Shown in pieces: positions 35 through 53,700 of a stretch of DNA of 64,000 nucleotides. Below the pieces are notes generated by a model that saw only the letters and a program-made list of their open reading frames with translations, had not been told where the DNA came from and made no database searches. Origin of the DNA: a virus (taxonomy: Duplodnaviria; Caudoviricetes). Every line of letters starts with the position of its first letter. The stretch's first letter is position 1. The stretch is from the IMG/VR virus record IMGVR_UViG_3300012979_000040, positions 7,757 to 71,756 of that record. One strand, given 5' to 3'. The translations under genes were made by a program, and so were the position numbers.

Positions 35-241
35 ATGAGAACTGTGTTCGAATCATCTAGGTATTATAAAGCCAAGGATGCTAAGCATCTAAAGAAATGG
101 TCACGTAAAGATTATAGTGACACACTTATTAGTAAAGCTAATGCTTCTAATAATGTAGCTAAAATATATTTTGAGGATTCTTATGCGTATAATCCAATTA
201 CGAATAAGATAGAGGAGGTTAAATATGAATCAAATATATAA
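35..241 (+). CDS. hypothetical protein (68 aa)
   Basis: ORF packed against the next gene (17-nt overlap); no recognisable motif. Confidence 0.5.
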   Translation: MRTVFESSRYYKAKDAKHLKKWSRKDYSDTLISKANASNNVAKIYFEDSYAYNPITNKIEEVKYESNI

Positions 242-602
242 ACCAGGTACATTAGTTACAGCTTTGTATAAATCTTTTGATGGTACAAAGTTGCCTGGAA
301 TATTTCTAATACTATATGATGAGGCACTAGACCCTAGACATAACTTTGATTGTAATGTTGTAGGTGTTAAGTGTACTACATCACATGCTGTTGTAGGTAA
401 CTATACAATAGCACTAGACCCAGAGGAAATCTCTGAGTTAGATAATGCATCTATCGCTGCATGCTCTAAGCTGCAGACGTTGGATAAATCAAAGATAGGT
501 AAAGTAATATGTCAGTTACCTAGCCACGTTTATACAAAGTTTTATAAAGAGTATACCGACTTTGCAAACGAGGTTGATAGACAAATGAAAGGAGGATTAT
601 AA
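225..602 (+). CDS. PemK/MazF-fold protein, probably catalytically divergent
   Basis: RBS GAGGAGG; pattern G-x-LV...K-x-P-x-x-FLIL...NVVGVKCTT...L-x-x-x-S-x-x-x-CSKLQTLDKSKI-x-K-x-I-x-x-L matches the PemK layout; the usual K-x-RP reads KLPG. Confidence 0.6.
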   Translation: MNQIYKPGTLVTALYKSFDGTKLPGIFLILYDEALDPRHNFDCNVVGVKCTTSHAVVGNYTIALDPEEISELDNASIAACSKLQTLDKSKIGKVICQLPSHVYTKFYKEYTDFANEVDRQMKGGL

Positions 603-603
603 G

Positions 604-1053
604 ATGACATTAACTGATGAACAAAAGATATTCTTAGCTTGGTTAAACAAGACATCTAAGATTCGTTATTATGAAATGGTTATCTGTAAAGATTTCAATG
701 GAGATAAATCTTCTCCACTTCATGGTGTTGGCCATGTTGCATTTAGAATCTTTATTGATCCAAGTTCATACTTACATTGTGTATTTTCTAATGAAGAAGA
801 TACAATGTATGTTACTGAGTATCATTGTACAACTAAGCGTATACCTAGTACTCAGGTAGGATTTATTAATAGATACTTTAGTAAGTATAGATTAAACTCT
901 GGACTTGTTAAAGGTGTCTTTAATAATTCTAAACAAATCTACATTAACTATAAAGACTTTATTAAAATTGTAGATAGAATTTATGATGGAGATTTTTATT
1001 CTCGTGGTTCGATGGATAAAGATAGTTATCATAGAGCAGGAGGTTTATACTAA
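604..1053 (+). CDS. hypothetical protein (149 aa)
   Basis: RBS AGGAGG, directly after the upstream stop. Confidence 0.75.
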   Translation: MTLTDEQKIFLAWLNKTSKIRYYEMVICKDFNGDKSSPLHGVGHVAFRIFIDPSSYLHCVFSNEEDTMYVTEYHCTTKRIPSTQVGFINRYFSKYRLNSGLVKGVFNNSKQIYINYKDFIKIVDRIYDGDFYSRGSMDKDSYHRAGGLY

Positions 1054-4577: not shown

Positions 4578-4597
4578 GAAAGGAAGGAGAATCAAAT

Positions 4598-5164
4598 ATG
4601 GGACAAAGATTAAATTTAGAAATAAGAAAGAAAGGTAAAGTATTAGCTAATGCATATTATCATTGGTCAGCATATACAGCTGATTCATTCAGGCTTATTA
4701 ATATAGCTTATGATTATATTTCTATGAATCATAACGAAGATGATTTAATGTTAGCTGTTCATGCCTTAGAATATACTGGTGCTGGCATGGAAGAGTGTGA
4801 ACTTACAGAGGTCTATAAACAACGTAAGTATGCAGGTGTAGAATTTAAGAAAGCTAAAGATAGGAATGAAGGACTACTTGCTATCTCTGAGAAAGGTATT
4901 GAAAGTACTATTCAATGGGCTGAAGAGACTGCTATCATAGATATTACAGACCCAAAGAATGTTAAGTTTAACTTCTGGGTAGTCTGGGCAGATGATGAAG
5001 ACTATTATATAGAGAATGATAAGAATGAATCAGATGTCATAATTGATTATGACTTTGATCCTGAAGAAGATATGACTTATATGCAGTTATATTCTTATGT
5101 TAAAGATTTAACTGATGGTAATGTAGTTAGATACTCAGGTAGAGTATTCAGGGAGATAGCATAA
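4598..5164 (+). CDS. conserved-looking phage hypothetical protein (MGQRL...AYYHWSAYT)
   Basis: strong RBS AGGAAGGAG; acidic C-terminus; function unknown. Confidence 0.8.
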   Translation: MGQRLNLEIRKKGKVLANAYYHWSAYTADSFRLINIAYDYISMNHNEDDLMLAVHALEYTGAGMEECELTEVYKQRKYAGVEFKKAKDRNEGLLAISEKGIESTIQWAEETAIIDITDPKNVKFNFWVVWADDEDYYIENDKNESDVIIDYDFDPEEDMTYMQLYSYVKDLTDGNVVRYSGRVFREIA

Positions 5165-6390: not shown

Positions 6391-6749
6391 TGAAATTAAC
6401 AAGTGGAAAGTTTCTGGAGATATTAAATTCAATAGATCCAGATCCCCAATTACTTGCGAAGATAGTTGTTGATACAATGAAGCGTATGCCTAGTGCATAT
6501 GCTTGGCAACTATCACAGCAATTATATATGGAATATTTCTATGATGGTCCTACTATCATAGTAACAAACAATCTTACTGGTGTGGTTAGAAGGTTTGCTA
6601 ATGAAAAAGATATCTTAGTATATCTTAACAATTTAGGTTATAAGTGTGACTTAACTGGAGTTAAGCGTGCTGTAACTTCTCGAGCTGTTGATTATAATAA
6701 TCATAAGTTCGAACCAAGCGAAAGAAAAGAGATTACTTATTTTGAGTAG
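6384..6749 (+). CDS. hypothetical protein, possible NUMOD1-like C-terminal DNA-binding region
   Basis: last gene of the + block; converges on and overlaps the GroEL stop. Confidence 0.6.
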   Translation: MVMKLTSGKFLEILNSIDPDPQLLAKIVVDTMKRMPSAYAWQLSQQLYMEYFYDGPTIIVTNNLTGVVRRFANEKDILVYLNNLGYKCDLTGVKRAVTSRAVDYNNHKFEPSERKEITYFE

Positions 6750-8295
6750 TCTCTTTCATTATTAATGTATTAGTTCTAAGATATGCACAAGCAATTGAGC
6801 CTGCATTCTTTAACGCTTCATCTATAGATAGATAACTATCTAAGATACCAGCATTTTTTAGATTCACTAGGACCCCTCTAGTTACATCTATACCATGTAC
6901 ACGGTCCCCTACATTTTTTGAATCTATAATTTCTTTGTCGCCCGCCGATATTTTTACACCTGCGTTCTCACATATAGTTCTCATTGGAGCATCAAGCACA
7001 TCTCTAAGAACACAATCAGTACTTAGATTCTTCTTAACATTAACTAAAGCTTTACCCCCACCAAGTACGATACCAAACTTGAAAGCTTTTCTTACAGCTC
7101 CGATAGCATCGTCTAATTTCAGTGCAAGTATCTTAAACTCAGTCACAGTAGGTACACCAACTTTTATTTTAACAATACCATTCTGTAATGATCCCAACCT
7201 TCTTTCGTATAATACACGATCAACTTGGTTAAGTTTGTAACGATTCTTGTTAAGCTTATCTCTATACACTTTGATTCTTCCTTTAACTTCATCATTCATT
7301 TCCAAACTGAATACAGTCTTGTCTACCTCTACACATACATGCTTACATATTCCACAGTGTTCGTAACCATATTCTCCAACTCCCGAGCTGGCATCTTGAA
7401 CTATCCCACCAGTTACTGCAGCACAGTCCATGTATACGTCATCCATCTTCGCTTCATTAACGAACACAAATTGGAAATTAAATTTATTCTTTATTAGAGT
7501 ATCAATAAGAATTCTAAGTGTGTTCGGATTGAAGTTCGGATTCAATATAAATAACCATGGATCCCCAACTTTCTCTCCTGGGATTCCTGCAAAGAATTTA
7601 TTGATTCCAGCTTGGGTCATGATCCCTTCCTTCATTAACACAACGTGACAGTCATCAACTTCCCACTTCTCACCATCAGGACATAACCTACGCATAGCAT
7701 CAGTCATGTAACCTGACTCCATTGTGTAACCATTTGTATGCTCTATCTTCATACCCATGTTATCACGATCATGTTCAATAAGTATGTTCATGTCACGGCC
7801 TGCAAGCTCATAAGCTTGTTTCACTATAGACCCAACTTCAGGTATCTTAGTAGATATAGTAGCAATGTCATATACATACTTCTTCCCCATACGCATCTTC
7901 TCACGACTAAGTAACTTCCTTATGATCTTAATCTCAATGTCTATCATATCAGCTACAACTTGTGGATGTAACCCCTCTTCGATCTTAGCACATCCTAAAT
8001 TATAGATCTCATCTGTTAATAATATAGTAAGAGTTGTTCCATCCAACGCTTCCTTCTCTGTATTTGATGCAGCTTCGATCATATCCATTGCAACCATACG
8101 TTTGAATCCATCCATCTTTGCAGCTTCACGTGCAACAGTAACACCATCATCTGTAAGCGTAGGCTTGTCAAAGTCCTGATTGATCGCAACATATAATCCC
8201 TTTGCACCCATGGTAGGTACAACTAAATCTCTTACCTCTCTGAATGTTTCACGTATTAAGCTTCTACATTCTTGTCCTTTGATATAGCTAAGCAT
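6733..8295 (-). CDS. groEL: GroEL-like chaperonin (520 aa)
   Basis: PTMGAKG, LTDDGVTVARE, ALDGTTL (GDGTTT variant), LDDAIGA (catalytic Asp), GIVLGGGKAL, KNAGILD; no GGM tail. Confidence 0.95.
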   Translation of the reverse strand: MLSYIKGQECRSLIRETFREVRDLVVPTMGAKGLYVAINQDFDKPTLTDDGVTVAREAAKMDGFKRMVAMDMIEAASNTEKEALDGTTLTILLTDEIYNLGCAKIEEGLHPQVVADMIDIEIKIIRKLLSREKMRMGKKYVYDIATISTKIPEVGSIVKQAYELAGRDMNILIEHDRDNMGMKIEHTNGYTMESGYMTDAMRRLCPDGEKWEVDDCHVVLMKEGIMTQAGINKFFAGIPGEKVGDPWLFILNPNFNPNTLRILIDTLIKNKFNFQFVFVNEAKMDDVYMDCAAVTGGIVQDASSGVGEYGYEHCGICKHVCVEVDKTVFSLEMNDEVKGRIKVYRDKLNKNRYKLNQVDRVLYERRLGSLQNGIVKIKVGVPTVTEFKILALKLDDAIGAVRKAFKFGIVLGGGKALVNVKKNLSTDCVLRDVLDAPMRTICENAGVKISAGDKEIIDSKNVGDRVHGIDVTRGVLVNLKNAGILDSYLSIDEALKNAGSIACAYLRTNTLIMKETTQNK

Positions 8296-14910: not shown

Positions 14911-15134
14911 AATAAATATTCCTCCTTTAATATATTATTTTCTTCATCGATCACACCATGCTTCCTGGCAACACGTGCCATGATAGCATCTGATCTGTTG
15001 TTGGGATCGAAATCCCCTCTAGATATTTTTCTGGTGATGTATACAAGACTTCTATCTAGATGATTCTCCTTTGTATCATACTTGATCTTTTTCTTTTTGG
15101 GTCTCTTCACCCTCAGTTTCAATGGATCTCTCAT
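14883..15134 (-). CDS. basic hypothetical protein (start moved to ATG 15134)
   Basis: RBS AGGTGA; a promoter lies inside the longer ORF-track N-terminus. Confidence 0.6.
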   Translation of the reverse strand: MRDPLKLRVKRPKKKKIKYDTKENHLDRSLVYITRKISRGDFDPNNRSDAIMARVARKHGVIDEENNILKEEYLLCKTKRTKS

Positions 15135-15150
15135 TTTATCACCTATATAA

Positions 15151-15191
15151 ATTATACCATAGTAGAAAGTTTTACTCAATAATGGTATAAT
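15151..15191. promoter_or_regulatory. overlapping divergent sigma-A promoters
   Basis: - strand TTGAGT(15174-79)-17-TATAAT(15151-56); + strand TAGAAA(15163-68)-17-TATAAT(15186-91); both TG-extended. Confidence 0.75.
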
Positions 15192-15210
15192 ATAGTAGAA
15201 AGGAGAGACC

Positions 15211-15381
15211 ATGGGAGAAACTAAAGAGCACATTAAAGAATGGATCGAGAGAGAAGTACATGAAATCCACACGTCATATTATGCAGACATGGATGACTGT
15301 GAACTTCTACAATTATTAGAGCATGCACATAAGTTGCAAAGGTATATAGAAAAATTATTAGGGGGTGAGTATAATGACTAA
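15211..15381 (+). CDS. small hypothetical protein (56 aa, MGETKEHIKEW...; below the ORF-track cutoff)
   Basis: RBS AAGGAG after the + promoter; stop overlaps the TerS start. Confidence 0.65.
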   Translation: MGETKEHIKEWIEREVHEIHTSYYADMDDCELLQLLEHAHKLQRYIEKLLGGEYND

Positions 15382-16012
15382 GCGTGTGTTTGTACCTGAG
15401 ATAATCGAAACAAAAGAAAATCTCCTAAGTGCATTGCGTACTGGAGATATTAAAACTAGTAAATATAATTTATTAAATGAGGAAGAGAAACTCTTCGTAG
15501 AACTTGTAGTCTTCGGTGACTATACTGCTGAGCAAGCTGTTAAGTCTATCCGTGGAGCTAGCTATGTTAGAGGCCAAGGTACCAGAATGTGTGCCCGTCC
15601 TAATGTGGCCGAAGCTTTAGAAGAATTATCATATAAGAAAAATAAAAAGTTCATGGCTGAGATCTCTAGTGCTAGAGACATGGCCTTAAGAAAGTTACAG
15701 TACATAATGACTACAACAGAGGATGAGAGTGTGGCATTGGCTGCAGCTAAAGTTATACTTGATAGATCAGAGAAAGCTACTACAGAGAAAGAGGCCAGCA
15801 GTGTGGTTAATGCTATCCAGTTTAATATCCAAGCTGCTCCTAGAGTATTAGATAATCCAATGGATCCGAAGGTGGATACTGAGAAGGTAATTGAAATAGC
15901 TGGGATGGATGATCTTGAATCAAGTAAGCAAAGTAAATTAGAAAAAGCCACAGCAGGAACTGGGCTAGACTTTGTACTTAGTTACGAGCAAGTTGATAAT
16001 TATAAAGGATAG
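15374..16012 (+). CDS. terS: terminase small subunit-like protein
   Basis: LNEEEKLFVELVV...TAEQAV...GTRMCARPNVAEALEEL HTH-like signature, then a helical oligomerisation-like region. Confidence 0.7.
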   Translation: MTKRVFVPEIIETKENLLSALRTGDIKTSKYNLLNEEEKLFVELVVFGDYTAEQAVKSIRGASYVRGQGTRMCARPNVAEALEELSYKKNKKFMAEISSARDMALRKLQYIMTTTEDESVALAAAKVILDRSEKATTEKEASSVVNAIQFNIQAAPRVLDNPMDPKVDTEKVIEIAGMDDLESSKQSKLEKATAGTGLDFVLSYEQVDNYKG

Positions 16013-16021
16013 TGGTATAAT
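15993..16021 (+). promoter_or_regulatory. promoter of candidate sRNA-1
   Basis: TTGATA-17-TATAAT with TG extension, overlapping the terS 3' end. Confidence 0.7.
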
Positions 16022-16025
16022 TAAT

Positions 16026-16080
16026 GTAGTGATTGACTGCATCACTATATCATTCCTTTGGAGGCGAAAGCCTCTTTTTT
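16026..16080 (+). ncRNA. candidate small RNA 1 (~55 nt)
   Basis: promoter, 5' hairpin TAGTGAT/ATCACTA, ATCATTCCTTT anti-SD-like segment, then a terminator; no ORF. Confidence 0.5.
16060..16080 (+). terminator. Rho-independent terminator
   Basis: GAGGC-GAAA-GCCTC then TTTTTT. Confidence 0.9.
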
Positions 16081-16087
16081 ATTGCAC

Positions 16088-16150
16088 TAAAAAAGAGCCG
16101 TAGCTCTAAGGAGAATCAAATATAAAAAATATGTTCTCTAATCTGGTGCA
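16088..16150 (-). ncRNA. candidate small RNA 2 (~62 nt)
   Basis: promoter TTGCGA(16179-84)-17-TATAAT(16156-61) with TG extension; terminator AGAGC-TACG-GCTCT-TTTTT; contains 16 nt antisense to 4584-4599. Confidence 0.6.
16089..16107 (-). terminator. Rho-independent terminator (C-UACG-G loop)
   Basis: AGAGC-TACG-GCTCT then a T run on the - strand. Confidence 0.85.
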
Positions 16151-16164
16151 ATTTAATTATAACA

Positions 16165-16268
16165 TAAAAAGATTGCCTTCGCAATCCTTTTATGTGTTTG
16201 AAGATGACATTAGATTATCTCACAAACGAACAAGACCATTCAACCAAGAGCTGGATATTTTCATATCC
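16165..16268 (-). ncRNA. candidate small RNA 3 (~103 nt)
   Basis: TTGACA(16298-303)-17-TATAAT(16275-80); predicted +1 at G16268 begins the hairpin GGATAT-GAAA-ATATCC; ends in a terminator. Confidence 0.55.
16166..16187 (-). terminator. Rho-independent terminator, also ending the replication operon
   Basis: GATTGC-GAAG-GCAATC then TTTTT; T run also present on the + side. Confidence 0.85.
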
Positions 16269-16274
16269 ATTATA

Positions 16275-16303
16275 ATTATATCTTAAATATAATTACTTGT
16301 CAA
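16275..16303 (-). promoter_or_regulatory. consensus sigma-A promoter of candidate sRNA-3
   Basis: perfect TTGACA-17-TATAAT overlapping the primase stop region. Confidence 0.85.
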
Positions 16304-18272
16304 CAAACACAGTCCCACGCTTGTATACCTTGAATTCCATGCCAACTTCAGTTTCAAACCTAGTTGATTTAACTGTTTTAAAGTTATTAACATCACACCA
16401 TACAGAATATTCTGCATATAATTCTTCAATTGGTTTACTCTTGATATAAGTATCATCAAGATTCTTAGCAGATATCCAACTAAGTACACCTGAGTTATCT
16501 ATTCTATAGATCTTCATCATCTCAGTTACACATGTAGGTTCTATAAAAGTATGGGTAGTCTTCAATACTTGACTGATAGCGAGCACACTTTTATATGCTA
16601 TGTATTCTAGGTCTTTCATAAGCCTGTCTTTGAAATCCATACCATCAACAAGACTAACTTTAGTTAGGTCTGCATTGAATGGTATAATACATAGTCTTCT
16701 ATAGAAACCACTAGTTGTGTCTGGTGTCCTAGGTAATGTGTTAGCACTGAACATTAACGTAGCGAAGACTGTATCATTGAATGGGTCTTTGTTCTTACGC
16801 TCTATAGTTATCTCATCCCCACCGACTATCTGTTTAAATAAGTCTGAGTCTTTAAGAGGTTGACTAGAGATATCTCCACTAAGAGATACGAGTTTGTTAT
16901 GTAACATACCAACTCTGAACTTCTCTCCCAAATCTTTGAAGTCTAAGCCAGTGCAGTTCTTTGCTCCACATATAGCTTTTATAACATCTAAGTATGTACT
17001 CTTACCATTTCTACCTTCTCCGATTAGTAGGAATGCCTTATGAAGTTCAGGTGTTTTCAAGAATGAATAACCTATTGCTTCATATAAGAGTTGTTCTACT
17101 TCCTTATCCCCACAAGTTGCTGTCTTAAAGAACTCGTCAGCAGTGGCACCCGTAGCACTTGGGTTATACTTGACGTTCATCCTAATAGTTTCAAGATGAT
17201 CAGGATGATGCGGGGTTAATGTTAGTGTTCTTATATTTAAGATCCCATTCTCGAACACAATATTGAATGGGTTCTTATTAAAGTCTGATAAATGTAATTC
17301 CAAAAATGTTTCTAGGAAATTAAGTACTTCCTTCTTCTGGAATTCTTTTAATGAAGGACACAGTTGTGTCATTATGCCTTTAATGTAATCATTATTCGAA
17401 ACATAAATACCTAACTTCTCATCATAGAAGTATAAGTTTTTTGATTTACTATCTTTTTTAATCTTAAGTAAGTCAATAAGATACTTACCCATAGTGTCAT
17501 GTAAGAAGACACCATTGTTTGAAAAGAACTTTTCTTCAGGAGTATCTTCATTGTTACTATCCCTTAGCATAGTAGCATCCATTTCATTCTCACTTAATGG
17601 TGTTGTTGCTACATAGCTATTGATTAAACGTATGCATTCAGCCCTTTGCTCTGGACTTAGATTGGTTTTCTTCAACCTCCACAGATGTCTGTTATAACTA
17701 TCATTCCTTGCATCTTGCATGGGGTATGAGATAAAGTTGTCATCCTTCTTATTACCTTTAGTAAATATTGGTGTTAGAAAGAATGGCAACTCTTCAATAC
17801 CATTATAATATATAACTCTTCTGTCTTGTAACTTTGCACTCCTATTTATTTTAGGATTCTTAAATGGTGTAGTAATAAAACTCTTACCATTAGCGTGCAC
17901 TATAGTATCACATACAGCCCCCACTGCTGTGATATTATTTACTGTCTTATTATTATAAGTACTCTTTGCATAGATATGAATACCTCTAGTAGTTTTAACT
18001 ACAAGAACTTTTTCTTTCCGGTCCGTTATTATCTTGTAGACTATCTTAGCTGTAGTCATATCATCTATATCAATTATAATCCAACCTTCTGGAATAATCC
18101 AACCTATTTCCATATAAGGATCTGTGTTTGCTAGGTTTACTATCTCTTCAAAAGATACAGGGGTTAAGGAACCCTTAGCTTTTGGTGCACCTCCTGATAG
18201 TTGCACATACGATTTGGCACCTTTGTTGTACAACTTCTCAAAATCTAAAAATGTTAGCATCAATCTTATCAA
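16293..18272 (-). CDS. primase-helicase (AEP/Prim-Pol N-terminus, D5/P4-family SF3 helicase)
   Basis: IIIDIDD and TTRGIHIY motifs; IVFENGIL (D5_N); Walker A GEGRNGKST; IERKNKDPF. Confidence 0.92.
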   Translation of the reverse strand: MIRLMLTFLDFEKLYNKGAKSYVQLSGGAPKAKGSLTPVSFEEIVNLANTDPYMEIGWIIPEGWIIIDIDDMTTAKIVYKIITDRKEKVLVVKTTRGIHIYAKSTYNNKTVNNITAVGAVCDTIVHANGKSFITTPFKNPKINRSAKLQDRRVIYYNGIEELPFFLTPIFTKGNKKDDNFISYPMQDARNDSYNRHLWRLKKTNLSPEQRAECIRLINSYVATTPLSENEMDATMLRDSNNEDTPEEKFFSNNGVFLHDTMGKYLIDLLKIKKDSKSKNLYFYDEKLGIYVSNNDYIKGIMTQLCPSLKEFQKKEVLNFLETFLELHLSDFNKNPFNIVFENGILNIRTLTLTPHHPDHLETIRMNVKYNPSATGATADEFFKTATCGDKEVEQLLYEAIGYSFLKTPELHKAFLLIGEGRNGKSTYLDVIKAICGAKNCTGLDFKDLGEKFRVGMLHNKLVSLSGDISSQPLKDSDLFKQIVGGDEITIERKNKDPFNDTVFATLMFSANTLPRTPDTTSGFYRRLCIIPFNADLTKVSLVDGMDFKDRLMKDLEYIAYKSVLAISQVLKTTHTFIEPTCVTEMMKIYRIDNSGVLSWISAKNLDDTYIKSKPIEELYAEYSVWCDVNNFKTVKSTRFETEVGMEFKVYKRGTVFVDK

Positions 18273-46162: not shown

Positions 46163-46191
46163 ATTATACCATTAAAAGTAATCATCTTCAA
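46163..46191 (-). promoter_or_regulatory. sigma-A promoter for the portal-capsid-tail operon
   Basis: TTGAAG-17-TATAAT with TG extension. Confidence 0.8.
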
Positions 46192-47749
46192 CTGCTACTC
46201 CCCAAGAATCTATCTCTCCACTGTCTAACCTTTCTTCCTCTTCATCTAACTTACGTTGCCATTTAGTACGGGTATCTTCTTCATACTCTTCTAATCCTAT
46301 AGGTGCAATGTCAGATGAATAGAATACTAAGAACAAACCATATGAGTCAATGGCGTGGTCTGCACAACCTTTGTTGATCATACCGATATTGAAATCATCA
46401 TACACAGCATTATCCATTTCTTCTATCAAACTATTAACAGATGTAGATATTCTAAACCTGTGTGTACCATCTATCATCTTAAGTCTAGTAGACGAATGGA
46501 TTTTATCATAACGCATTTGTACTTTACCTTTACCAGATTCAACACCTATAGGGTTTAATCCATAGTAATCAAATACTTCTGATTTCATTTCACCTATTAT
46601 TCTACCAGTATCATCTCTATATCTATCACCACCACGATACATATCATGTGGTAATAAAGTGGCTGTTATATAGTAACCCATTTGTTTAGACTTATCTGCT
46701 ATTGCTCTAACAAAGTCTTCAAATATTAGATCTTGCCCATACATATCATCGAATGTTATAACCCTACCATCTTCAAATACTGCGTGCCATAAGGCTGAGT
46801 GATAAGATGGTTTGTAACCCCAGTCTATAGATATGTATACATCAAAGTTTTGTGGGCCATTGGTTAATTCAAGGAAAGCTTCTCTACCATTTATATACTG
46901 TTCTTCAGGAACATCAAACATCCTACCAGCTACAACATCCCAGTTACCATATAAATCCATTTGCTTTCTTGCTTCATCTTGCATCTCTAACATAGCTGCG
47001 TATGATGCATTTAAGAATGGATTATCTTTATATGATGCTGGTATAAATCTAGTAATAACTTTGATCTTACCTTTAGCTGTGTCCATCCATTCAATGTGGT
47101 CTTTTGTTTCAATAGGAGCATTAGTGTATGGATCATACAATGTAACTGTAGGATCAATAAATCTACGCTTAACCCATTTGTGACCTTTACCTCCAGGGTT
47201 ACAACCAAGTACAACCTTTGTAGGAATTCTTAGTTTCTCGCCTGTATAAGGATTGGTTTGAATTGTAGAACGAACTGTTGATAACAGATAGTTAAATGTT
47301 CTTTCATCTTGTTTAGTAACTTCATCAATAGCTAAGTAGTGAAATTCCCAACCTTGTTGGCTTAATGCTTCACGGTAATCAGCTACACGTTGAAGTGTGA
47401 TGTAACTTCCATTAGGAAAGATTATAGAACGGGAAGGGTACCAAGAGGTACTCTTCTCTCTATATTCATATATTGTTTGCCCACCTGCTTTTTGTGGAAA
47501 CAATGTAGGCAACTTATCTAGGAATGATTGTTTAACGGCATCCAGTTTCTCACGGATGATTATACATTTAGCTCCAGGATAAGTAGTGGCAAACATGAAG
47601 GCGTCAGCTAGAATACCTGCTGACTTACCTCCACCTCTCGAACCACCATAGAGAGTAATACATATATCCTCAAAGGAGCAAGGTGCATTGTGTAATAGCA
47701 CCTGCTTCTCGTGAGGTTGATAGCTTGGTGTGACAACTACCTTAGCCAT
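46172..47749 (-). CDS. terL: terminase large subunit
   Basis: YGGSRGGGKS Walker A, AIDEVT Walker B, GCNPGG motif III, ISIDWG nuclease, DHAIDS. Confidence 0.97.
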   Translation of the reverse strand: MAKVVVTPSYQPHEKQVLLHNAPCSFEDICITLYGGSRGGGKSAGILADAFMFATTYPGAKCIIIREKLDAVKQSFLDKLPTLFPQKAGGQTIYEYREKSTSWYPSRSIIFPNGSYITLQRVADYREALSQQGWEFHYLAIDEVTKQDERTFNYLLSTVRSTIQTNPYTGEKLRIPTKVVLGCNPGGKGHKWVKRRFIDPTVTLYDPYTNAPIETKDHIEWMDTAKGKIKVITRFIPASYKDNPFLNASYAAMLEMQDEARKQMDLYGNWDVVAGRMFDVPEEQYINGREAFLELTNGPQNFDVYISIDWGYKPSYHSALWHAVFEDGRVITFDDMYGQDLIFEDFVRAIADKSKQMGYYITATLLPHDMYRGGDRYRDDTGRIIGEMKSEVFDYYGLNPIGVESGKGKVQMRYDKIHSSTRLKMIDGTHRFRISTSVNSLIEEMDNAVYDDFNIGMINKGCADHAIDSYGLFLVFYSSDIAPIGLEEYEEDTRTKWQRKLDEEEERLDSGEIDSWGVAVEDDYF

Positions 47750-50700
47750 TCAAGATCACTCCTGTCTTTATAGTCTACTCCAGTATCATATGATGTAAGA
47801 TTGTAATCGTTACTCCATATACCCATTTCAGGGGATACGTGTACACTTACTCTGTCAAGATTCCAATCATTATATCTATCAAGCTTTTTGTTATAAGAAT
47901 ATGTTTTAGGATAGTACTTACCAGGATATATATTTGAGTATGGATAGTATGAAGAATAACTACTACCATAATAATTGTTGTTATAAGTCTTCTTGTATTT
48001 AGGTACATATACATCCTTTGTTTCTGTAGGGAATAATTTCTCTAACATTGGGTACATCTCTGATTCATATTCTATAGCTTGTTGTAATTTTAATTGTTCT
48101 GCTGGAGTTAGTGAGTTTATATAAGCTTGTCTATACTCTTTTAAAGTATTTAACTTTCTTATTATAGAGTTGTTATTTAATGCAGCTCTTAGTGTTGCTT
48201 CAGATACATCATTGTCATTGTATTCATGAGTTATATAGTTATATACAACTGTAGAACTTTCACGACCATTGATCATCTTTCTAAGAGTTTGATTAACTCT
48301 ATTAAAGTCATCTACGTCATAAGATCCATATTGAGAAGCGTAATGTCTGTTATAGTACAATTCATCAACACTAGCCATATCGTTTATGTCTAGGTCATAA
48401 TCATAACCTTTAATACCTCTACTAAACGCTTTCATATCTGTTATGAATGCATAGTAGTTAGAAGTATCTTTCTTCCAAGATTTCTGATTACCTAGATCAC
48501 TATTGATACCTTTAGTTAAACCTTTCCATAAAGATGTAAGGAATCCAGTATCTTGATCTGAGTATTTAGAATATTTGTTTTGATCTATAACATTATCTGC
48601 AATACCACTTCCTGTAAAGAATCCAAGGACTTTTCTCATACCGTTCTCAACATTAGTGTATTGGTATTTTTGTTTAGTGCTCATGAATGGATCAGCTATT
48701 TGATAAGGGTCACCACTGTCACCAAACATTTCTTGTCCTGTAACTATTTCAATAGGTAACTTAAGTACTGGGTTTAATCTAGAAAGTACGTTAGCTTTAA
48801 TCCAACCATAACCTTTTTTAGCTAATGTATCATTATACTCATTTGTTAATGGGTTAATATACATTTCTTTAATTTGGTATGCAGGATTTAATGAATCATA
48901 TACAACTGTAGGAGTTCCTCCGATAAGAGTACCAATAGGATCAAGTGTAACACCTTCTTCTATCCACTCTTCTTCAGTCTCTTCATCTACACCGTACATA
49001 TCACATACTGCTGTTATGATTGCATTTGATAATAATGATAATCCAACTACACCTAAGCTAGGCATTACAACTGTGTTATACCATTGTGTTGCATTGTTTT
49101 CAGTTATACCTTCTTGGAATAATCTTCCAACACTCATTGCATATGAACCAAGAGTTCTTGTTAAGTTCATAGGGAATGTTGCGAACATCATTATACCTGA
49201 TGTGTATTTAGATAAATAAGGGAAACCTCCAGGAGAACCAAGCATGTAATCCATGATGTACATAGCTTTATCTCTGTTATCTTTTATACCATCAATAGCA
49301 TTCTTGTTATAGTATTGAGAACCATACCAAGGTCTACCATTATCAAATGATTCTTTAGCTGTTAGATATATAGCGTATCTTCCAAGATGATTCTGTAAGT
49401 CTAACGGCTTAGTCATAAAGTCTGTAATCTTACTTAATATATCTGTACCCATATCTTCTGTAAAGTTGATTGGGTCTTTATTAGTTCCACCCCATAAACT
49501 AGGTTGACCTTCACGTATTAAGTAATCTTTTAAATCTTCAGGTATTGACTTACCTTTTGAACTTAAGGCTTGAGATATATCTTTACCAGCTCTAGCTATA
49601 TTAGGAATTGTATCGTAGTTAGATATAGCTCCCATAGCATAGTCTGAACCAGTATATCTTAAGAATCTACTTAGCATCTTAGCAGGTAATGCCATTTGTA
49701 TTCCTGCTGATGTTGTAGAAATTTTCTTAAATAATTTCATAACTCTTCCAGGAATCTTTCTGGTATATACCTTAGATGAAAGTTGATCTACTAAATCGTT
49801 TCGAGCAAGATAGATTTCTCCACTTAATGCTTTCTCTAGTACATATTGAGCAAACATTGTATCACTCTTACTATTGTAAGATAGTTCAATATTATCTTTC
49901 AAATATGATAGGGATCCGTCATATACTGGAGCAACTGATCCACCTCTTTGAATCTTTTGACCAAACTTATTTACAAGACTGTAACCTTCTTTTTCAAGAC
50001 CTGCTATATATTTAACAAGCTTGTCAGAAGATCTAGAAGAACATTCTATAATTCTTTGTGCAATCATTATCTGAGCCCACATAGCATTGTAAGTTTCTTT
50101 TGCTAATAGTCTAGTTGGTTCATTCACATATTGATCAACATTAGCCATACGATATATCTCAGATAGTGATGATACAACACCGTCTGAAGATGTTTCTGCA
50201 AGTTGTTGTCTTAATGATTCTGCCTTACCTCTTACTTCTCTGTAAGCTTCTAGTATAAGATCAGCACCATTCTTAGAAGTTTTTCTTAATCTGTATATAT
50301 CTAGGTCAGTATACATACTTGTTATCTCTAAGACTTTATCAGTTATTTCTGAATCAAGTGCATTATAAACTTTAAGATCTCCGAATGTTTCTGGTGCATC
50401 TATTATTTCAAATGCTTTGTTAACTATATCAACATTGTTGATTAAAGCTTTACCAGTATATTTACCAGTCAATGCATTGGAAATATTTTCAGCAGCTATA
50501 ACATTACTCATATCTCTAATAAGTTTTTCTGATCCTTCAAAGAAATTAAATATCATGTTTTGTTCAACTATGTTCTTATTACTAGATGGATCATATGCTT
50601 TAGAAATGCTTGATATCTTTTTAAGATTATTAAGTATCATGTTTTCTCTTGCTACTTTATCTTTAGGAACATATGGTGCCATCAGAATGTGGAATGAATC

Positions 50701-53700
50701 AAATGGTTCATTAGATATCTGTGACGCTCTTCCTGCAAGATACATCATATTAGAAATGAATTCATCATAAGCTTTTACTATTTCAGGATGTTTAGTTACG
50801 TAAGAATCATGATCAAGTTTTAATTTGCTGTTCTCAGCTTTCCATTCTTCTTTTGATAATCCCATGTATTTAAGTTTAGCTTCAAAAGTTTTAGGATCTT
50901 TAGAAGCTTCTGTTAACCATCTGAACTTAGCAAATTGTTCAAAGTTTCCAATACCAGCCTTAGTTATCATCTTATTAAGGGCTGTTAACTTTTGACCGTA
51001 TTCTAATTGGATATACTCTGCTTCAGACTTAAAGTTCTTTATACCTATATCAACACCAAGTTGATCAGCGTTGTCTGTAGATATACCACTTCTTGTCCAC
51101 AATCTAGATTCAAACAATTTATCATTAGTAGATAAATCCCATGTGAAGTTTATAAACCCAGAAGACTTATCAGCTGTGTAAGCTCTAACTTTTTTAGTTA
51201 GTTCTTCATAAGCTTCAAACTCTCTTTGTTTAGCTTCTTCAAATTGTTTAGTATCCATTATAGCATTATCAATAGCTTTAGATCTTTTGAATGCTTTTAC
51301 TTCATCATTTGTGAATTCTTGTTTACTAATAGTATCAGTTATATCACGTCTAAGCATGTAACCTTTAGTACCTTTATTTATCTCTCTTCTATAATCTCTA
51401 GGATCAATAATATCATGATGGTGAACTCTTTGATAATTTAATCCACCTTCATCATTTACGAATTGTCCTACAAGCTTATTAACTTCTATACCTTTTATAC
51501 CACGGTATTCAGCAGCTTTTTCTACTGAGTTTTTATTTTTATCCATAGCAAGAGACATTATATAGAATGCTCTAACAGATGGTGAATATCCTGTAGATAA
51601 TCTTTCATTCTCAATAGACTTACCTATTAAGCCTTCAAATGTAGGTTTAGTAGGAGTGTTATCTGTTTCGAATACATCATAATCATCAGAACCTTTTGTG
51701 AATATTTCATCAATCTGAGGTCTTATACCAAAGATATCTTGTTCACCACCAAGGTTTGTTTTAGTATTTCCACCGAAGACATATTCATTTAGTATAGGAT
51801 CATATATTAGTGTACCCATCTTAGTATCTATAGATGTCCAGCCAGTACCTATACTCGCACTATTTGGAATGAATTGCCTGTAACCCATATCACCTTCTTG
51901 AATAGCTTTCAAGATTGCATTTGTATTAGGGTATGCTCCAGTTACACCTCTATAGAATTCTATGAATGGAACATGTAATATAGTGTTCTGTACTAATGTC
52001 CTATCATTTGTACTCTTATTAGCCATATTAAATAGTTTACCGTGAACACTCTCATACTTAGGGTCAAGTATTTGAGCTTCAGATCCACCACTGGCTTTTG
52101 AAGATGTAGATCTAGGGTTACTGTAGAATTCTTCTGAGAAGTTAGAAGGCATTGTTGGATCTAACTTATTAGCTATTTCATTACTAAATAGGAACTTCAT
52201 TACATTTGAACTATTAGCAAGTTTAATCATTCTATCTCTACCTAGAGTTCTCATTAAAGCATATTGTTCTTCAAGTAATTCATAAGAGTTTATCTTCTCT
52301 CTAGAATATCTTAAGTTATTTAAATACTCTTCTCTTGTTTTAAATGGACTGTTATAACTTCCGAATAAACCTTCTAACTCTTTATCAGTTAAAGAGTTTA
52401 ATAAAGCATCTGTTCTTAAGAACATCACATATGATCCTGTATCTCCCCAAGCAACTCTATGATCACCTTTATTAGTGTCTAAGACTTTAGATATCTGTGA
52501 TGTGTCTATGTATAATCTTCCTTCTTTATCACGCTTTAATGCAGCACTTCCGAATCTAGCCATCTGCATGAATGACATTATATTAGACATTGACATCAAT
52601 TCAAACGATCTGATGTGACTAGGATCATTAGGATCTAGTTTAGGTGTGTAATCAATATCGGCACCTATGATATTAGTAGGTACTCCTTTTAACACATAAC
52701 CAGATCTTGGTTTGCCGTCAGGTCCTTTGAATGTTACATACTCAGCATTTCTAAAGTAAGATAACAATTCAATACCTTGAGCATATTTATTCCAGTTCTT
52801 AGTAGCATTATTAGCATCAACTATTAAGTCAATATTAGCAGCTTTAAAGCTATCCCCTTCTTTATCAACATCTGATATTTTTGTTTCTGCAGTATTACCT
52901 TTAAAGAATCCAGCACCTGCAAGTTTCTTACCTACAACTTCAGTTTCTTCAAAATAAATTATTGCATTATCTTTTTTCGATACATCAGATATAACTATGT
53001 TATTGTGAGCTTTAACAACAGACCCATCGTCTCTAAAACCTAGTACTTGGCCTTCTCTAATTACAGCACCTTTACGAACTCTATCAACATGCTTACCATT
53101 AACTTTGTCTTTTATAAATGTTATTCCTTCATAAGGCATAACTTTTGCAGCAAAGCTTCTTATCTTACTATTTCTATTTCCGATATTTGTATTAAGACCT
53201 ACTGTATCTTCATTATTAAATATACCTTTTGTTACAAATACATTAACTCTATTTTGTCTAGGTGAATAGTCGTCATCTACAAGTTCAACCATAGAACCTT
53301 GGATAGCTTCCATAGCCTTAGCAAAGTTGAATGTACCTTCTGATACTTCATCTAATTTGTCTGATGTAGTAACATCTAAAGGTTTATTTAAGTTTGTACT
53401 AACCTTACTTCTTACTAATTCTGATTGTAACATATCTGATAAAGGAGTGTCATTAGCTGCATATCCAGATATCTCTTTCTTTCTATGTGTAAGTTGTGCA
53501 AGTTTTTCATCTAGTAATTTAGTTCTCTCCAATTGATCAGAGAATGTAGTGTCTTTTGAAACAAGATCAAGAGCCCTATCTAAAGCAGCTTTTGTTTCAT
53601 CGTTAAGATTATTGTAGTTTCTACTAAATAACTCTAAATCATGTAATGCTTGTGATAAAACTGTTTCTGCAAAGTCAGCATAAGCTTTAGATTTATTTAC

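What the first reader, a model, noticed from the sequence alone, without database searches (positions are those of the whole stretch)
15993..16303. Three compact promoter-to-terminator units in one 280-bp convergent gap: candidate phage sRNA locus
Seen: (1) + strand TTGATA-17-TATAAT, then ~55 nt ending in GAGGC-GAAA-GCCTC-T6; (2) - strand TTGACA-17-TATAAT, then ~103 nt starting with a GAAA-capped hairpin and ending in GATTGC-GAAG-GCAATC-T5; (3) - strand TTGCGA-17-TATAAT, whose -35 overlaps terminator 2, then ~62 nt ending in a C-UACG-G terminator. None has an RBS-led ORF, and each contains a segment complementary to a translation-initiation region elsewhere in this genome (next three findings). 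Two terminators would be enough to end the converging operons; three extra promoters are not explained by that. Established: trans-acting phage antisense RNA has precedent (P1 C4). Inference: an sRNA switchboard controlling temporal expression.
Basis: partly seen in the sequence, partly recalled or inferred. Interest (0 to 1): 0.85.

Follow-up and report, generated by a model that had tools for sequence, protein, structure and literature searches.

The report
Conserved small-RNA island in rumen phage
The 280-base gap between two converging genes of an uncultured rumen phage very probably holds three tiny non-coding RNA genes: one is a new, strongly conserved structured RNA and two are fast-changing RNAs that display a ribosome-binding-site-masking motif, but what they control is still unknown and no expression data could be obtained.

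Summary
They are more than chance: only four sites in the 71.7-kb phage genome match the sigma-A consensus at 11/12 or better, and two lie in this gap, including the only 12/12.

Unit 2 (16163-16268, - strand, "RNA2") is a real RNA family. It occurs once per genome in 19 distinct relatives. 97% of pair cells pair, 11 of 21 pairs show double changes, and slid controls give 48-64%. It is the best-conserved 100 nt of the region and has no Rfam match.

Units 1 and 3 are lineage-variable cassettes with an exposed CU-rich anti-Shine-Dalgarno stretch. Five clade-B relatives carry UCACCUCCUUUC, which matches the 16S rRNA 3' tail. In 11 of 12 clade-A relatives the RNA2 terminator stem carries the -35 of the next unit.

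The "switchboard" reading is not supported:
- RNA2's 12-nt match to gene 604 is chance-level and is lost in three relatives.
- Unit 3's 16-nt match to gene 4598 is real but borderline, and is lost in a relative with an identical unit 3.
- Unit 1 has no match above shuffles.

No expression data were obtainable. Earlier scan notes, which I did not check, describe similar anti-SD small RNAs in other uncultured phages, though not this sequence. This is a new member of a known kind.

The parts
15365..16012 (+). Upstream flanking gene (215 aa; weak match to small-terminase PHROG). Its last codons (..V-D-N-Y-K-G*) contain the -35 of unit 1.
   Evidence: (phrog_51, E 9e-5). Homologues of 209-212 aa sit in the same place in all relatives.
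15993..16021 (+). Unit 1 promoter: TTGATA-17-TATAAT with a TG extension.
   Evidence: 11/12. The -10 lies after the stop codon. It is kept at 17 nt in the window subclade and in all clade-B relatives examined, and is absent where the terminator directly follows the stop codon (L004, L005, L007, L008 types).
16028..16081 (+). Unit 1 RNA (about 54 nt). It has a 5' hairpin (16028-16046), a single-stranded CU-rich stretch AUAUCAUUCCUUU (16047-16059), and a terminator GGAGGC-GAAA-GCCUCU plus T6 (16060-16081).
   Evidence: MFE -14.2, z -2.7. The RNA body is identical in L023, L049 and L050.
16088..16150 (-). Unit 3 RNA (about 62 nt). It has a weak 5' hairpin, a single-stranded UUCUCCUUA stretch, and a terminator AGAGC-UACG-GCUCU plus T6 (16107-16088). 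The segment complementary to 4584-4599 corresponds to 16108-16123.
   Evidence: The RNA is identical in L023, L049 and L050. Diverged relatives keep the 5' AUUGC.. and the ..UCCUUAG motifs.
16156..16184 (-). Unit 3 promoter: TTGCGA-17-TATAAT (TG-extended). Its -35 lies inside the 5' arm of the RNA2 terminator stem.
   Evidence: 10/12. TTGC(G/T)N followed after 17-18 nt by a TATAAT-like box is present in 11 of 12 clade-A relatives. No TTGC is present in the stems of the 9 clade-B relatives, which also lack a downstream - strand unit.
16163..16268 (-). It has four parts:
- a 5' hairpin GGAUAU-GAAA-AUAUCC (16268-16253);
- a conserved single strand ..CUCUUGGUUGAAUGGUCUUGUU.. (16252-16228);
- a middle hairpin GUUUG...CAAAC (16227-16196) with the invariant loop UAAUGUCAUCUU (16212-16201);
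- a terminator (core stem 16186-16171, T-run to 16165).
   Evidence: MFE z -4.2; 19 distinct sequences, 91-118 bits; 97.2% of cells paired; 11 of 21 pairs with double changes; the best-conserved 100-nt bin of the region.
16275..16303 (-). RNA2 promoter: TTGACA-17-TATAAT, the only 12/12 consensus match in the genome. The -35 is embedded in the last primase codons (V-D-K*).
   Evidence: TTGACA is present in all 20 distinct relatives, which requires Asp = GAC although GAC is only 26% of Asp codons in this phage.
16293..18272 (-). Downstream flanking gene: D5-like primase/helicase. RNA2 also forms its 3' untranslated end.
   Evidence: phrog_864 E 5e-114; PF19263, PF08706.
4584..4599 (+). Candidate target of unit 3, specific to this lineage: the SD, spacer and first bases of the start codon of gene 4598-5164 (AAGGAGAAUCAAAUAU).
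   Evidence: It is kept in L048 but not in L049/L050. Borderline, and not established.

Best explanation
The gap is a small-RNA gene island read by the host's sigma-A-type RNA polymerase.

RNA2 is a conserved, structured, about 105-nt non-coding RNA. It starts with a protective 5' hairpin and ends in an intrinsic terminator that also ends the primase operon. Between these it exposes two invariant stretches, which are its likely contact surfaces for a conserved partner. No conserved complementary site exists in the phage, so the partner is probably a host RNA, or possibly a protein.

Units 1 and 3 are short, exchangeable cassettes with the layout 5' hairpin, single-stranded CU-rich stretch, terminator. 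The exposed stretch is an anti-Shine-Dalgarno sequence. They most likely act by pairing with ribosome-binding sites of mRNAs and blocking translation initiation, as SD-masking small RNAs of Bacillota and the c4 RNA of phage P1 do.

Shown here:
- the sequence features;
- conservation;
- covariation;
- modular gain and loss of cassettes;
- the anti-SD motif.

Inferred:
- transcription;
- base-pairing as the mode of action;
- the identity of every target.
For: Promoters and terminators:
- All are found by the scan.
- Two of the genome's four best sigma-A matches lie in the gap.

RNA2:
- It occurs as a single copy in every relative down to about 63% primase identity.
- 97.2% of pair cells form pairs, 11 pairs show double changes, and slid controls give 48-64% with 2-5 such pairs.
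- Its 100-nt bin is 90-92% identical where the flanking genes are 47-83% identical.
- The -35 is kept through a rare GAC codon in 20 of 20 relatives.

Units 1 and 3:
- They are identical in L049/L050, where a neighbouring protein is only 58% identical.
- The -10 boxes are conserved at fixed spacing while the RNA bodies diverge.
- The terminator-embedded TTGC -35 co-occurs with a downstream unit: 11 of 12 clade-A relatives against 0 of 9 clade-B relatives.
- In my reading of the 21 relatives' gap sequences, every accessory unit I could delimit carries UCCUU or CCUUUC (UUCUCC in L002's unit 3, UUCUUU in its unit 1).
- The 12-mer UCACCUCCUUUC occurs in 5 distinct relatives. It is always on the + strand, always inside the gap, and found nowhere else in those loci. 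It equals the Bacillus subtilis 16S 3' tail GAUCACCUCCUUUCU (PMC5732282).

Host and folding:
- The phage itself uses strong SDs, with 56 of 64 ORFs SD-led, so SD pairing is meaningful in this host.
- Folding leaves the CU-rich stretches unpaired.
Against: - There is no transcript evidence of any kind.
- No target is established. Intragenomic complementarity of units 1 and 2 does not exceed shuffles, and the unit 3 match is not conserved.
- Much of the RNA2 covariation separates just two clades, so there are few independent events, except in the terminator.
- The -35 boxes of units 1 and 2 overlap coding sequence.
- An anti-SD stretch would pair with most mRNAs, phage ones included, so specificity is unexplained.
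- The host is unknown. The only hint is that a sister phage contig was binned into an Acholeplasmatales MAG.
Confidence: 0.6

Rival explanations
1. Only RNA2 is a real RNA gene. Units 1 and 3 are just the terminators of the two converging operons plus a back-up terminator, with promoter-like boxes that arise easily in AT-rich spacer DNA.
For: - Two terminators are needed here anyway.
- In the 2.3-kb scan, promoter-like sites are common (16 found against 9.3+-2.9 in shuffles).
- Unit 1's -35 is coding sequence.
- Unit 3 folds only weakly (z -1.6).
- The unit 1 and 3 bins are the least conserved part of the region in L004 and L005 (47-67%).
- The units are absent or replaced in many relatives.
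Against: - The -10 boxes sit at exactly 17-18 nt from the -35 in many relatives, although the surrounding sequence differs.
- TTGC in the terminator stem occurs only where a downstream unit exists: 11 of 12 clade-A relatives against 0 of 9 clade-B relatives.
- Where unit 1's -10 is missing, the whole RNA body is missing too, and the terminator abuts the stop codon.
- Every cassette keeps the layout of 5' hairpin, anti-SD stretch and terminator.
- Both units are 100% identical in L049/L050 amid diverged genes.
Confidence: 0.15
2. RNA2 does not act by base pairing. It is instead a protein-binding or decoy RNA. Examples would be an anti-defence RNA that mimics a host RNA such as a CRISPR repeat or an RNA antitoxin, or an RNA that binds a phage or host enzyme.
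For: - No conserved complementary site exists in two complete phage genomes or in 13 partial relatives.
- The loop and the single strand are invariant, as expected for a fixed partner.
- The 32-nt middle hairpin GUUUG...CAAAC has the size and ends of a CRISPR repeat (my own observation).
- Phage RNA anti-CRISPRs are known (from my own knowledge, not checked here).
Against: - No genome among 401 of the MAG's class holds array-like multiples of the loop motif; the maximum was 6 scattered near-matches, about 2-3 times the control.
- Model R1 finds no copy in three genomes that hold exact 15-mers of the motif.
- RNA2 has no internal repeats.
- The host, and therefore its CRISPR repeats, is unknown, so the test is weak.
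Confidence: 0.12
3. The RNA2 region is a replication origin next to the primase/helicase gene. The strong promoter would supply an activating or primer transcript, and conservation would act at the DNA level.
For: - It directly follows the D5-like primase/helicase at the end of the replication module.
- It carries the strongest promoter in the genome.
- DNA identity is very high.
Against: - Compensatory changes keep three RNA helices.
- The transcript is stopped by an efficient-looking terminator after about 105 nt.
- There are no iterons or direct repeats.
- There is no turn in the cumulative GC skew near 16 kb; the only turn is near 6 kb, where the gene strand switches.
Confidence: 0.05
4. 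Nothing in the gap is independently transcribed. All three 'units' are 3' untranslated ends and terminators of the flanking operons.
For: There are no expression data. RNA2 and unit 1 are each contiguous with the 3' end of a gene.
Against: - The perfect consensus promoter is conserved in 20 of 20 relatives through a rare codon.
- A covarying hairpin sits exactly at the predicted +1.
- The -10 boxes lie in non-coding DNA at fixed spacing.
Confidence: 0.05

Closest known systems
c4 antisense RNA of phages P1 and P7 (immI region)
   Same: It is a phage-encoded small RNA whose exposed segments pair with an mRNA around its ribosome-binding site and block translation (review PMC12197685).
   Different: - c4 is cut out of the same operon that it regulates, and its targets lie just downstream. 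The units here have their own promoters and terminators, and no nearby target.
- There is no Rfam match to any family, including C4, at E up to 10.
- The phages are unrelated and the host type differs.
SD-masking C-rich small RNAs of Bacillota (RsaE/RoxS type)
   Same: They are short stand-alone RNAs with pyrimidine-rich unpaired motifs that pair with Shine-Dalgarno regions, and they end in an intrinsic terminator (PMC6158497, PMC8216469, PMC5419742; listed, details from my own knowledge).
   Different: - Those are chromosomal, conserved in sequence, and use CCCC/UCCC motifs.
- The motif here is UCCUU/CCUUUCU, up to an exact copy of the 16S tail in relatives.
- The RNAs here are phage-borne and change quickly.
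- They give no Rfam hit to RsaE or any other family.
Small-RNA clusters in prophage 'moron' slots of enterohaemorrhagic E. coli (AgvB, AsxR) and other phage-encoded sRNAs
   Same: Several short promoter-to-terminator RNA genes are packed into a gene-free slot of a phage genome (PMC4104026, PMC12197685).
   Different: - Those are Hfq-dependent anti-sRNAs of temperate Gram-negative phages.
- The phage here is apparently non-temperate and targets a Bacillota-type host. No integrase was seen in the parts I annotated, but I did not search for one systematically.
- There is no sequence relation.
Anti-SD small RNAs noted earlier in this scan in other uncultured phages (e1-5408065, e1-5351961, e1-5674728, e1-5658311)
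   Same: They also sit in a convergent gap, are promoter-to-terminator units, and expose an anti-SD stretch; one was described as a 16S-tail mimic. These are AI notes that I did not check.
   Different: - They come from different phage groups (jumbo and freshwater phages).
- They are single RNAs, not a chained island.
- A sequence look-up found no shared sequence.

Membership tests
Any curated RNA family (Rfam 15), including C4 antisense RNA, RsaE, 6S and tRNA-like families | A score at or near the family's gathering threshold against its covariance model | tested here: not met
   At E up to 10, the only hit in the gap is Srn266 at 21.4 bits against a gathering score of 63 (E 2.2). ARAGORN finds no tRNA or tmRNA in the window.
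Stand-alone bacterial or phage small-RNA gene (generic definition) | Own promoter and intrinsic terminator, with no conserved ORF | tested here: met
   ORFs in the gap are not conserved and are not SD-led.
Stand-alone bacterial or phage small-RNA gene (generic definition) | Conservation and compensatory base changes in relatives | tested here: met
   Met for RNA2. For units 1 and 3 only the architecture, the -10 boxes and the anti-SD motif are conserved.
Stand-alone bacterial or phage small-RNA gene (generic definition) | A discrete transcript of the predicted size | not testable with these tools
There is no cultured relative.
c4-type phage antisense repressor | Seed segments complementary to the RBS region of a target in the same operon, with seed and target kept matched in relatives | tested here: not met
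   - There is no target in the same operon.
- Distant matches are at or near chance.
- They are not kept in relatives whose RNA is identical or invariant.
SD-masking small RNA (works-like class, not a homology family) | An unpaired pyrimidine-rich stretch complementary to the host-type SD, in a host that uses SDs | tested here: met
   - AUUCCUUU (unit 1) and UUCUCCUUA (unit 3) are unpaired in the fold.
- 56 of 64 phage ORFs are SD-led.
- Five relatives carry UCACCUCCUUUC.
- RNA2 has no such stretch.
SD-masking small RNA (works-like class) | Demonstrated repression of a defined mRNA | not testable with these tools
   This needs an experiment.
RNA anti-CRISPR (solitary repeat mimic) | Similarity of the RNA to the CRISPR repeat of a host array | tested here: inconclusive
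   No array-like multiplicity of the RNA2 loop motif was found in 401 genomes of the class of the MAG that holds a sister phage contig. The true host is unknown.
Transcription-primed replication origin | Iterons or an AT-rich unwinding element, a skew switch, and no need for RNA structure | tested here: not met
   - No direct repeats.
- No skew turn at 16 kb.
- RNA helices covary.

The most novel reading that the evidence does not exclude
The island is a plug-in rack of translation-hijacking RNAs. Each terminator stem carries the -35 of the next cassette, so cassettes can be added or swapped without new regulatory DNA. The cassettes are mimics of the free 3' tail of 16S rRNA, with an exact 12-13-nt copy in several relatives. 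They would compete with ribosomes for Shine-Dalgarno sites, or act as decoys for a factor that recognises that tail. This would let the phage re-weight host against phage translation. The invariant RNA2 would be a separate, host-directed riboregulator or anti-defence RNA shared by the whole phage lineage.
Probability: 0.15. Interest if true: 0.8.

Novelty: new member of a known kind. Interest (0 to 1): 0.55.

Why it matters
Phage-encoded regulatory RNAs are known mainly from temperate phages of Gram-negative bacteria (PMC12197685). This finding adds three things.

- **A new RNA family.** An uncultured lineage of about 71-kb rumen/gut phages, apparently infecting a Bacillota-type host, keeps a dedicated small-RNA locus. 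It has one invariant member with comparative support good enough to define a new RNA family.
- **A modular design.** The terminator stem doubling as the next promoter's -35 explains how cassettes come and go.
- **A recurring theme.** Small RNAs displaying the ribosome's own anti-SD sequence, also noted elsewhere in this scan, suggest a general phage strategy for touching translation initiation.

The locus gives precise, testable predictions: three start sites, three sizes and the seed stretches. These can be checked by small-RNA sequencing of rumen samples or by promoter and reporter tests in a Bacillota host.

Tried and rejected
- **Known families.** The Rfam search of 15000-17500 at E up to 10 gave nothing meaningful. 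There are no tRNA or tmRNA genes.
- **Public collections.**
  - blastn of 5 kb against 50,697 phage records gave no match.
  - The primase scan and the pattern scan of IMG/VR contigs gave none. Relatives came only from ENA, Logan and JGI assemblies.
- **Coding readings.** The 51-aa + strand ORF and the short - strand ORFs in RNA2 have frames broken by indels between clades and no properly spaced SD. I rejected them.
- **RNA2 targeting gene 604.** The match is 12 nt. The score is below the shuffle maxima, and the match is lost in L048, L049 and C33. Rejected as a conserved target.
- **Unit 3 targeting gene 4598.**
  - The score is borderline.
  - The start region is identical in L048 but different in L049/L050, which have an identical unit 3.
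  - I keep it only as a lineage-specific candidate.
  - C33 has neither unit 3 nor a detectable 4598 homologue, which is too weak to use.
- **Conserved RNA2 partner sites.**
  - I searched the start regions of two complete genomes and the flanks of 13 relatives.
  - The only recurring hits are wobble-rich matches inside conserved coding sequence of the Sak4-like ATPase and the primase.
  - They differ between clades and score at background level.
- **Near-matches to the RNA2 loop in the MAG.** There were 46 against 30 for the control. The one hit in the phage contig lies inside a gene.
- **CRISPR-repeat mimicry.** No array-like counts were found in 401 genomes, and there is no RNA2 copy in three genomes that hold exact 15-mers.
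- **Origin of replication.** There are no repeats and no skew turn.
- **More distant relatives.** Model R1 does not detect the positional analogue in the 53%-primase relative L014, so homology there is not shown.
Full report
**What is there.** The gap 16013-16292 lies between a 215-aa ORF (15365-16012, +) and a D5-like primase/helicase gene (16293-18272, -). The ORF has a weak small-terminase PHROG match.
- + 15993-16021, TTGATA-17-TATAAT;
- - 16303-16275, TTGACA-17-TATAAT;
- - 16184-16156, TTGCGA-17-TATAAT.

It also finds three terminator-like hairpins, all inside the gap. Over the whole 71.7-kb genome, only four sites match the sigma-A consensus at 11/12 or better, where shuffles give 5.6+-2.3. 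Two of the four lie in this gap, and the RNA2 promoter is the only perfect one.

**The genome.**
- The window is part of an IMG/VR virus record of 71,756 bp with about 33% G+C.
- It carries a 5317-aa ORF.
- 56 of 64 ORFs have strong Shine-Dalgarno-led starts.
- Its promoters are of the TTGACA/TATAAT type.
- TerL is at most 26% identical to any cultured phage, and blastn finds no related phage record.
- A sister genome of 71,258 bp sits as a contig in a yak-rumen 'Acholeplasmatales' MAG.

The host is therefore probably a low-G+C Bacillota-type bacterium of the rumen or gut, but it is not known.

**Relatives.** Primase homologues at 90-39% identity are plentiful in metagenome assemblies. I fetched loci around them, around an RNA2 pattern, and around two other genes. 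In all relatives down to about 63% primase identity, the same convergent gap (187-319 bp or more) lies between the primase and the 209-212-aa ORF.

- *Distribution.* A covariance model built from 19 distinct sequences finds exactly one copy per relative (91-118 bits). It finds none elsewhere in the window or in the complete sister genome.
- *Consensus structure.* A 5' hairpin sits exactly at the predicted +1. It is followed by a single strand (..CUCUUGGUU(G/A)AAUG(G)UCUUGUU..), a middle hairpin whose loop UAAUGUCAUCUU is invariant, and the terminator.
- *Covariation.* On the model alignment, 97.2% of pair cells form pairs and 11 of 21 pairs show changes on both sides. Sliding the partners by 1-3 columns gives 48-64% pairing and 2-5 such pairs. 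The caveat is that many of these changes separate just two clades.
- *Conservation.* The RNA2 bin is the best-conserved 100 nt of the 4-kb region: 90-92% identity in L004 and L005, where the flanking genes are 47-83% identical.
- *Promoter.* The -35 TTGACA lies in the last primase codons (V/I-D-K). It is present in all 20 distinct relatives. This requires the Asp codon GAC, which makes up only 26% of Asp codons here. The -10 lies in non-coding DNA at 17-18 nt.
- *Not coding, no known family.* Indels between clades break every reading frame. There is no Rfam match.

I take RNA2 to be a real, new RNA family (about 0.8).

**Units 1 and 3.** These behave as exchangeable cassettes. The gap holds two to four units, depending on the relative.

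Unit 1:
- The -35 lies in the ORF's last codons, the -10 follows the stop codon at 17 nt, and then come a 5' hairpin, a CU-rich single strand and a terminator.
- It is present in the window subclade and in all clade-B relatives examined. The official scan confirms it in L010.
- Where the -10 is absent, the whole RNA body is absent and the terminator abuts the stop codon.

Unit 3:
- Its promoter uses a -35 (TTGCGA) that is part of the RNA2 terminator stem.
- TTGC(G/T)N followed after 17-18 nt by a TATAAT-like box is found in 11 of 12 clade-A relatives.
- The nine clade-B relatives have no downstream - strand unit and no TTGC in that stem.
- In L004-type relatives the design is repeated, giving a chain of three - strand units.

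Motif and folding:
- In my reading of the relatives' gap sequences, every accessory unit I could delimit carries UCCUU or CCUUUC (UUCUCC in L002's unit 3, UUCUUU in its unit 1).
- In five distinct relatives the stretch is UCACCUCCUUUC. It is always on the + strand, always in the gap, and occurs nowhere else in those loci. It equals the 3' tail of Bacillus subtilis 16S rRNA, GAUCACCUCCUUUCU (PMC5732282).
- In the window the stretches are AUUCCUUU (unit 1) and UUCUCCUUA (unit 3). Both are unpaired in the predicted folds.
- L049 and L050 carry a gap that is 96-100% identical to the window. This includes identical unit 1 and unit 3 bodies, although a nearby 516-aa protein is only 58% identical.

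**Targets.** I ran an ungapped pairing scan of the whole genome against 40 shuffles of each RNA:

| RNA | Best match | Shuffle maxima |
|---|---|---|
| Unit 1 | 29.5 | 29.6+-1.8 |
| RNA2 | 32 | 33.8+-2.4 |
| RNA2, 12-nt match to gene 604 | 27 | 33.8+-2.4 |
| Unit 3, 16-nt match to gene 4598 | 39.5 | 31.8+-3.6 (maximum 42.5) |

- *RNA2 and gene 604.* The RNA2 loop is invariant. The gene 604 start region differs in L048 (8/12), L049 (7+4) and the sister genome C33.
- *Unit 3 and gene 4598.* The 4598 start region is identical in L048. In L049/L050, which have an identical unit 3, it differs: 11/17 matches, a duplex of about -15 against -25 kcal/mol, and rank 10 of 30 start regions.
- *Other partner sites.* No conserved partner site for RNA2 appears in the start regions of two complete genomes or in the flanks of 13 relatives.

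The 'switchboard' is therefore not supported. The unit 3 match remains a lineage-specific candidate. I also note that the + strand opposite unit 3 (16108-16123) is a 16/16 copy of 4584-4599. This may record how the seed arose.

**Other readings tested.**
- *CRISPR-repeat mimic.* The RNA2 middle hairpin has the size and ends of a repeat. However, no genome among 401 of the MAG's class shows array-like multiples of the loop motif, and three genomes with exact 15-mers hold no RNA2. This test is weak because the host is unknown.
- *Replication origin.* There are no iterons and no skew turn, and the RNA helices covary.
- *Plain terminators.* This does not explain the conserved -10 boxes, the rare codon in the -35, the co-occurrence of TTGC with a downstream unit, or the hairpin at +1.

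**How it most likely works.** Host RNA polymerase reads three short genes.
- RNA2 is shielded at its 5' end by a hairpin, a common stabilising feature in Bacillota (from my own knowledge). It is released at the primase terminator and presents two invariant surfaces to a conserved partner. That partner is probably of host origin.
- The cassettes present an anti-SD stretch and probably mask ribosome-binding sites. This is what c4 RNA does for the ant mRNA of P1/P7 (PMC12197685) and what C-rich small RNAs such as RsaE and RoxS do in Bacillota.
- Transcription, pairing and every target are inferred, not shown.

**Novelty and limits.** The kind of element, phage-encoded regulatory small RNAs, is known. 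RNA2 is a new family. The chained terminator/promoter design and the 16S-tail copies are unusual variants. Earlier notes of this scan describe similar anti-SD RNAs in other uncultured phages. I did not check those notes, and they share no sequence with this locus. The main gap is the complete lack of expression data.

Noticed in passing
window 47737-63690 (-): A single ORF of 5317 aa takes up a quarter of the window, directly upstream of terL (46172-47749). Another first-reader note calls it a virion RNA polymerase candidate.
   Followed up: no
L015 4915-6043 (also L016, L017): In relatives with about 45% primase identity, the position after the primase is a 1.1-kb gene-free stretch holding five tRNA genes (Asp, Pro, Glu, Val, Gln) instead of small-RNA units. 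There are long unexplained spacers of 193 and 436 nt between some of them.
   Followed up: partly
L014 5944-6070 (+ in locus): A 53%-primase relative has, in the corresponding convergent gap, a roughly 95-nt unit: TG-extended TTGAGT-18-TATACT, a 5' hairpin and a terminator (fold z -4.9). It resembles RNA2 in layout and in short motifs (CCUUGUUU, GUCUUCUUCAC), but model R1 does not detect it.
   Followed up: partly
window 225-602 (+) and 604-1053 (+): There is a MazF/PemK-like toxin domain gene (Pfam E 3.3e-5). It is directly followed by a 149-aa ORF of no known family whose start abuts its stop. This may be a toxin-partner pair at the head of the + strand module.
   Followed up: no
window 16108-16123 (+) and 4584-4599 (+): The + strand opposite the unit 3 seed is an exact 16-nt copy of the SD-to-start segment of gene 4598. 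This may mean the seed arose by inverted duplication of that leader.
   Followed up: partly
window 15996-16011 and 16264-16279: A 16-nt inverted repeat (94% complementary) joins the unit 1 promoter spacer and the RNA2 -10/+1 region, so the two outer promoters share sequence in mirror orientation.
   Followed up: no
window 25784 (-) and 34705 (-): These are the only other sites in the genome that match the sigma-A consensus at 11/12 or better. Both sit just upstream of SD-led genes. Overall such sites are no more frequent than in shuffles (4 against 5.6), so host-type consensus promoters are rare in this phage.
   Followed up: partly
G001:C33 (L034-L037), 71,258 bp: A full-length sister phage genome is binned as a contig of a yak-rumen 'Acholeplasmatales' MAG (JAGCWW010000069.1). 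This is either a host hint or a binning artefact.
   Followed up: partly
window 6733-8295 (-); L048 10757-12319; L049 13592-15154: The phage and its relatives encode a Cpn60/GroEL-family protein, and a Cpn10-like ORF lies nearby.
   Followed up: no
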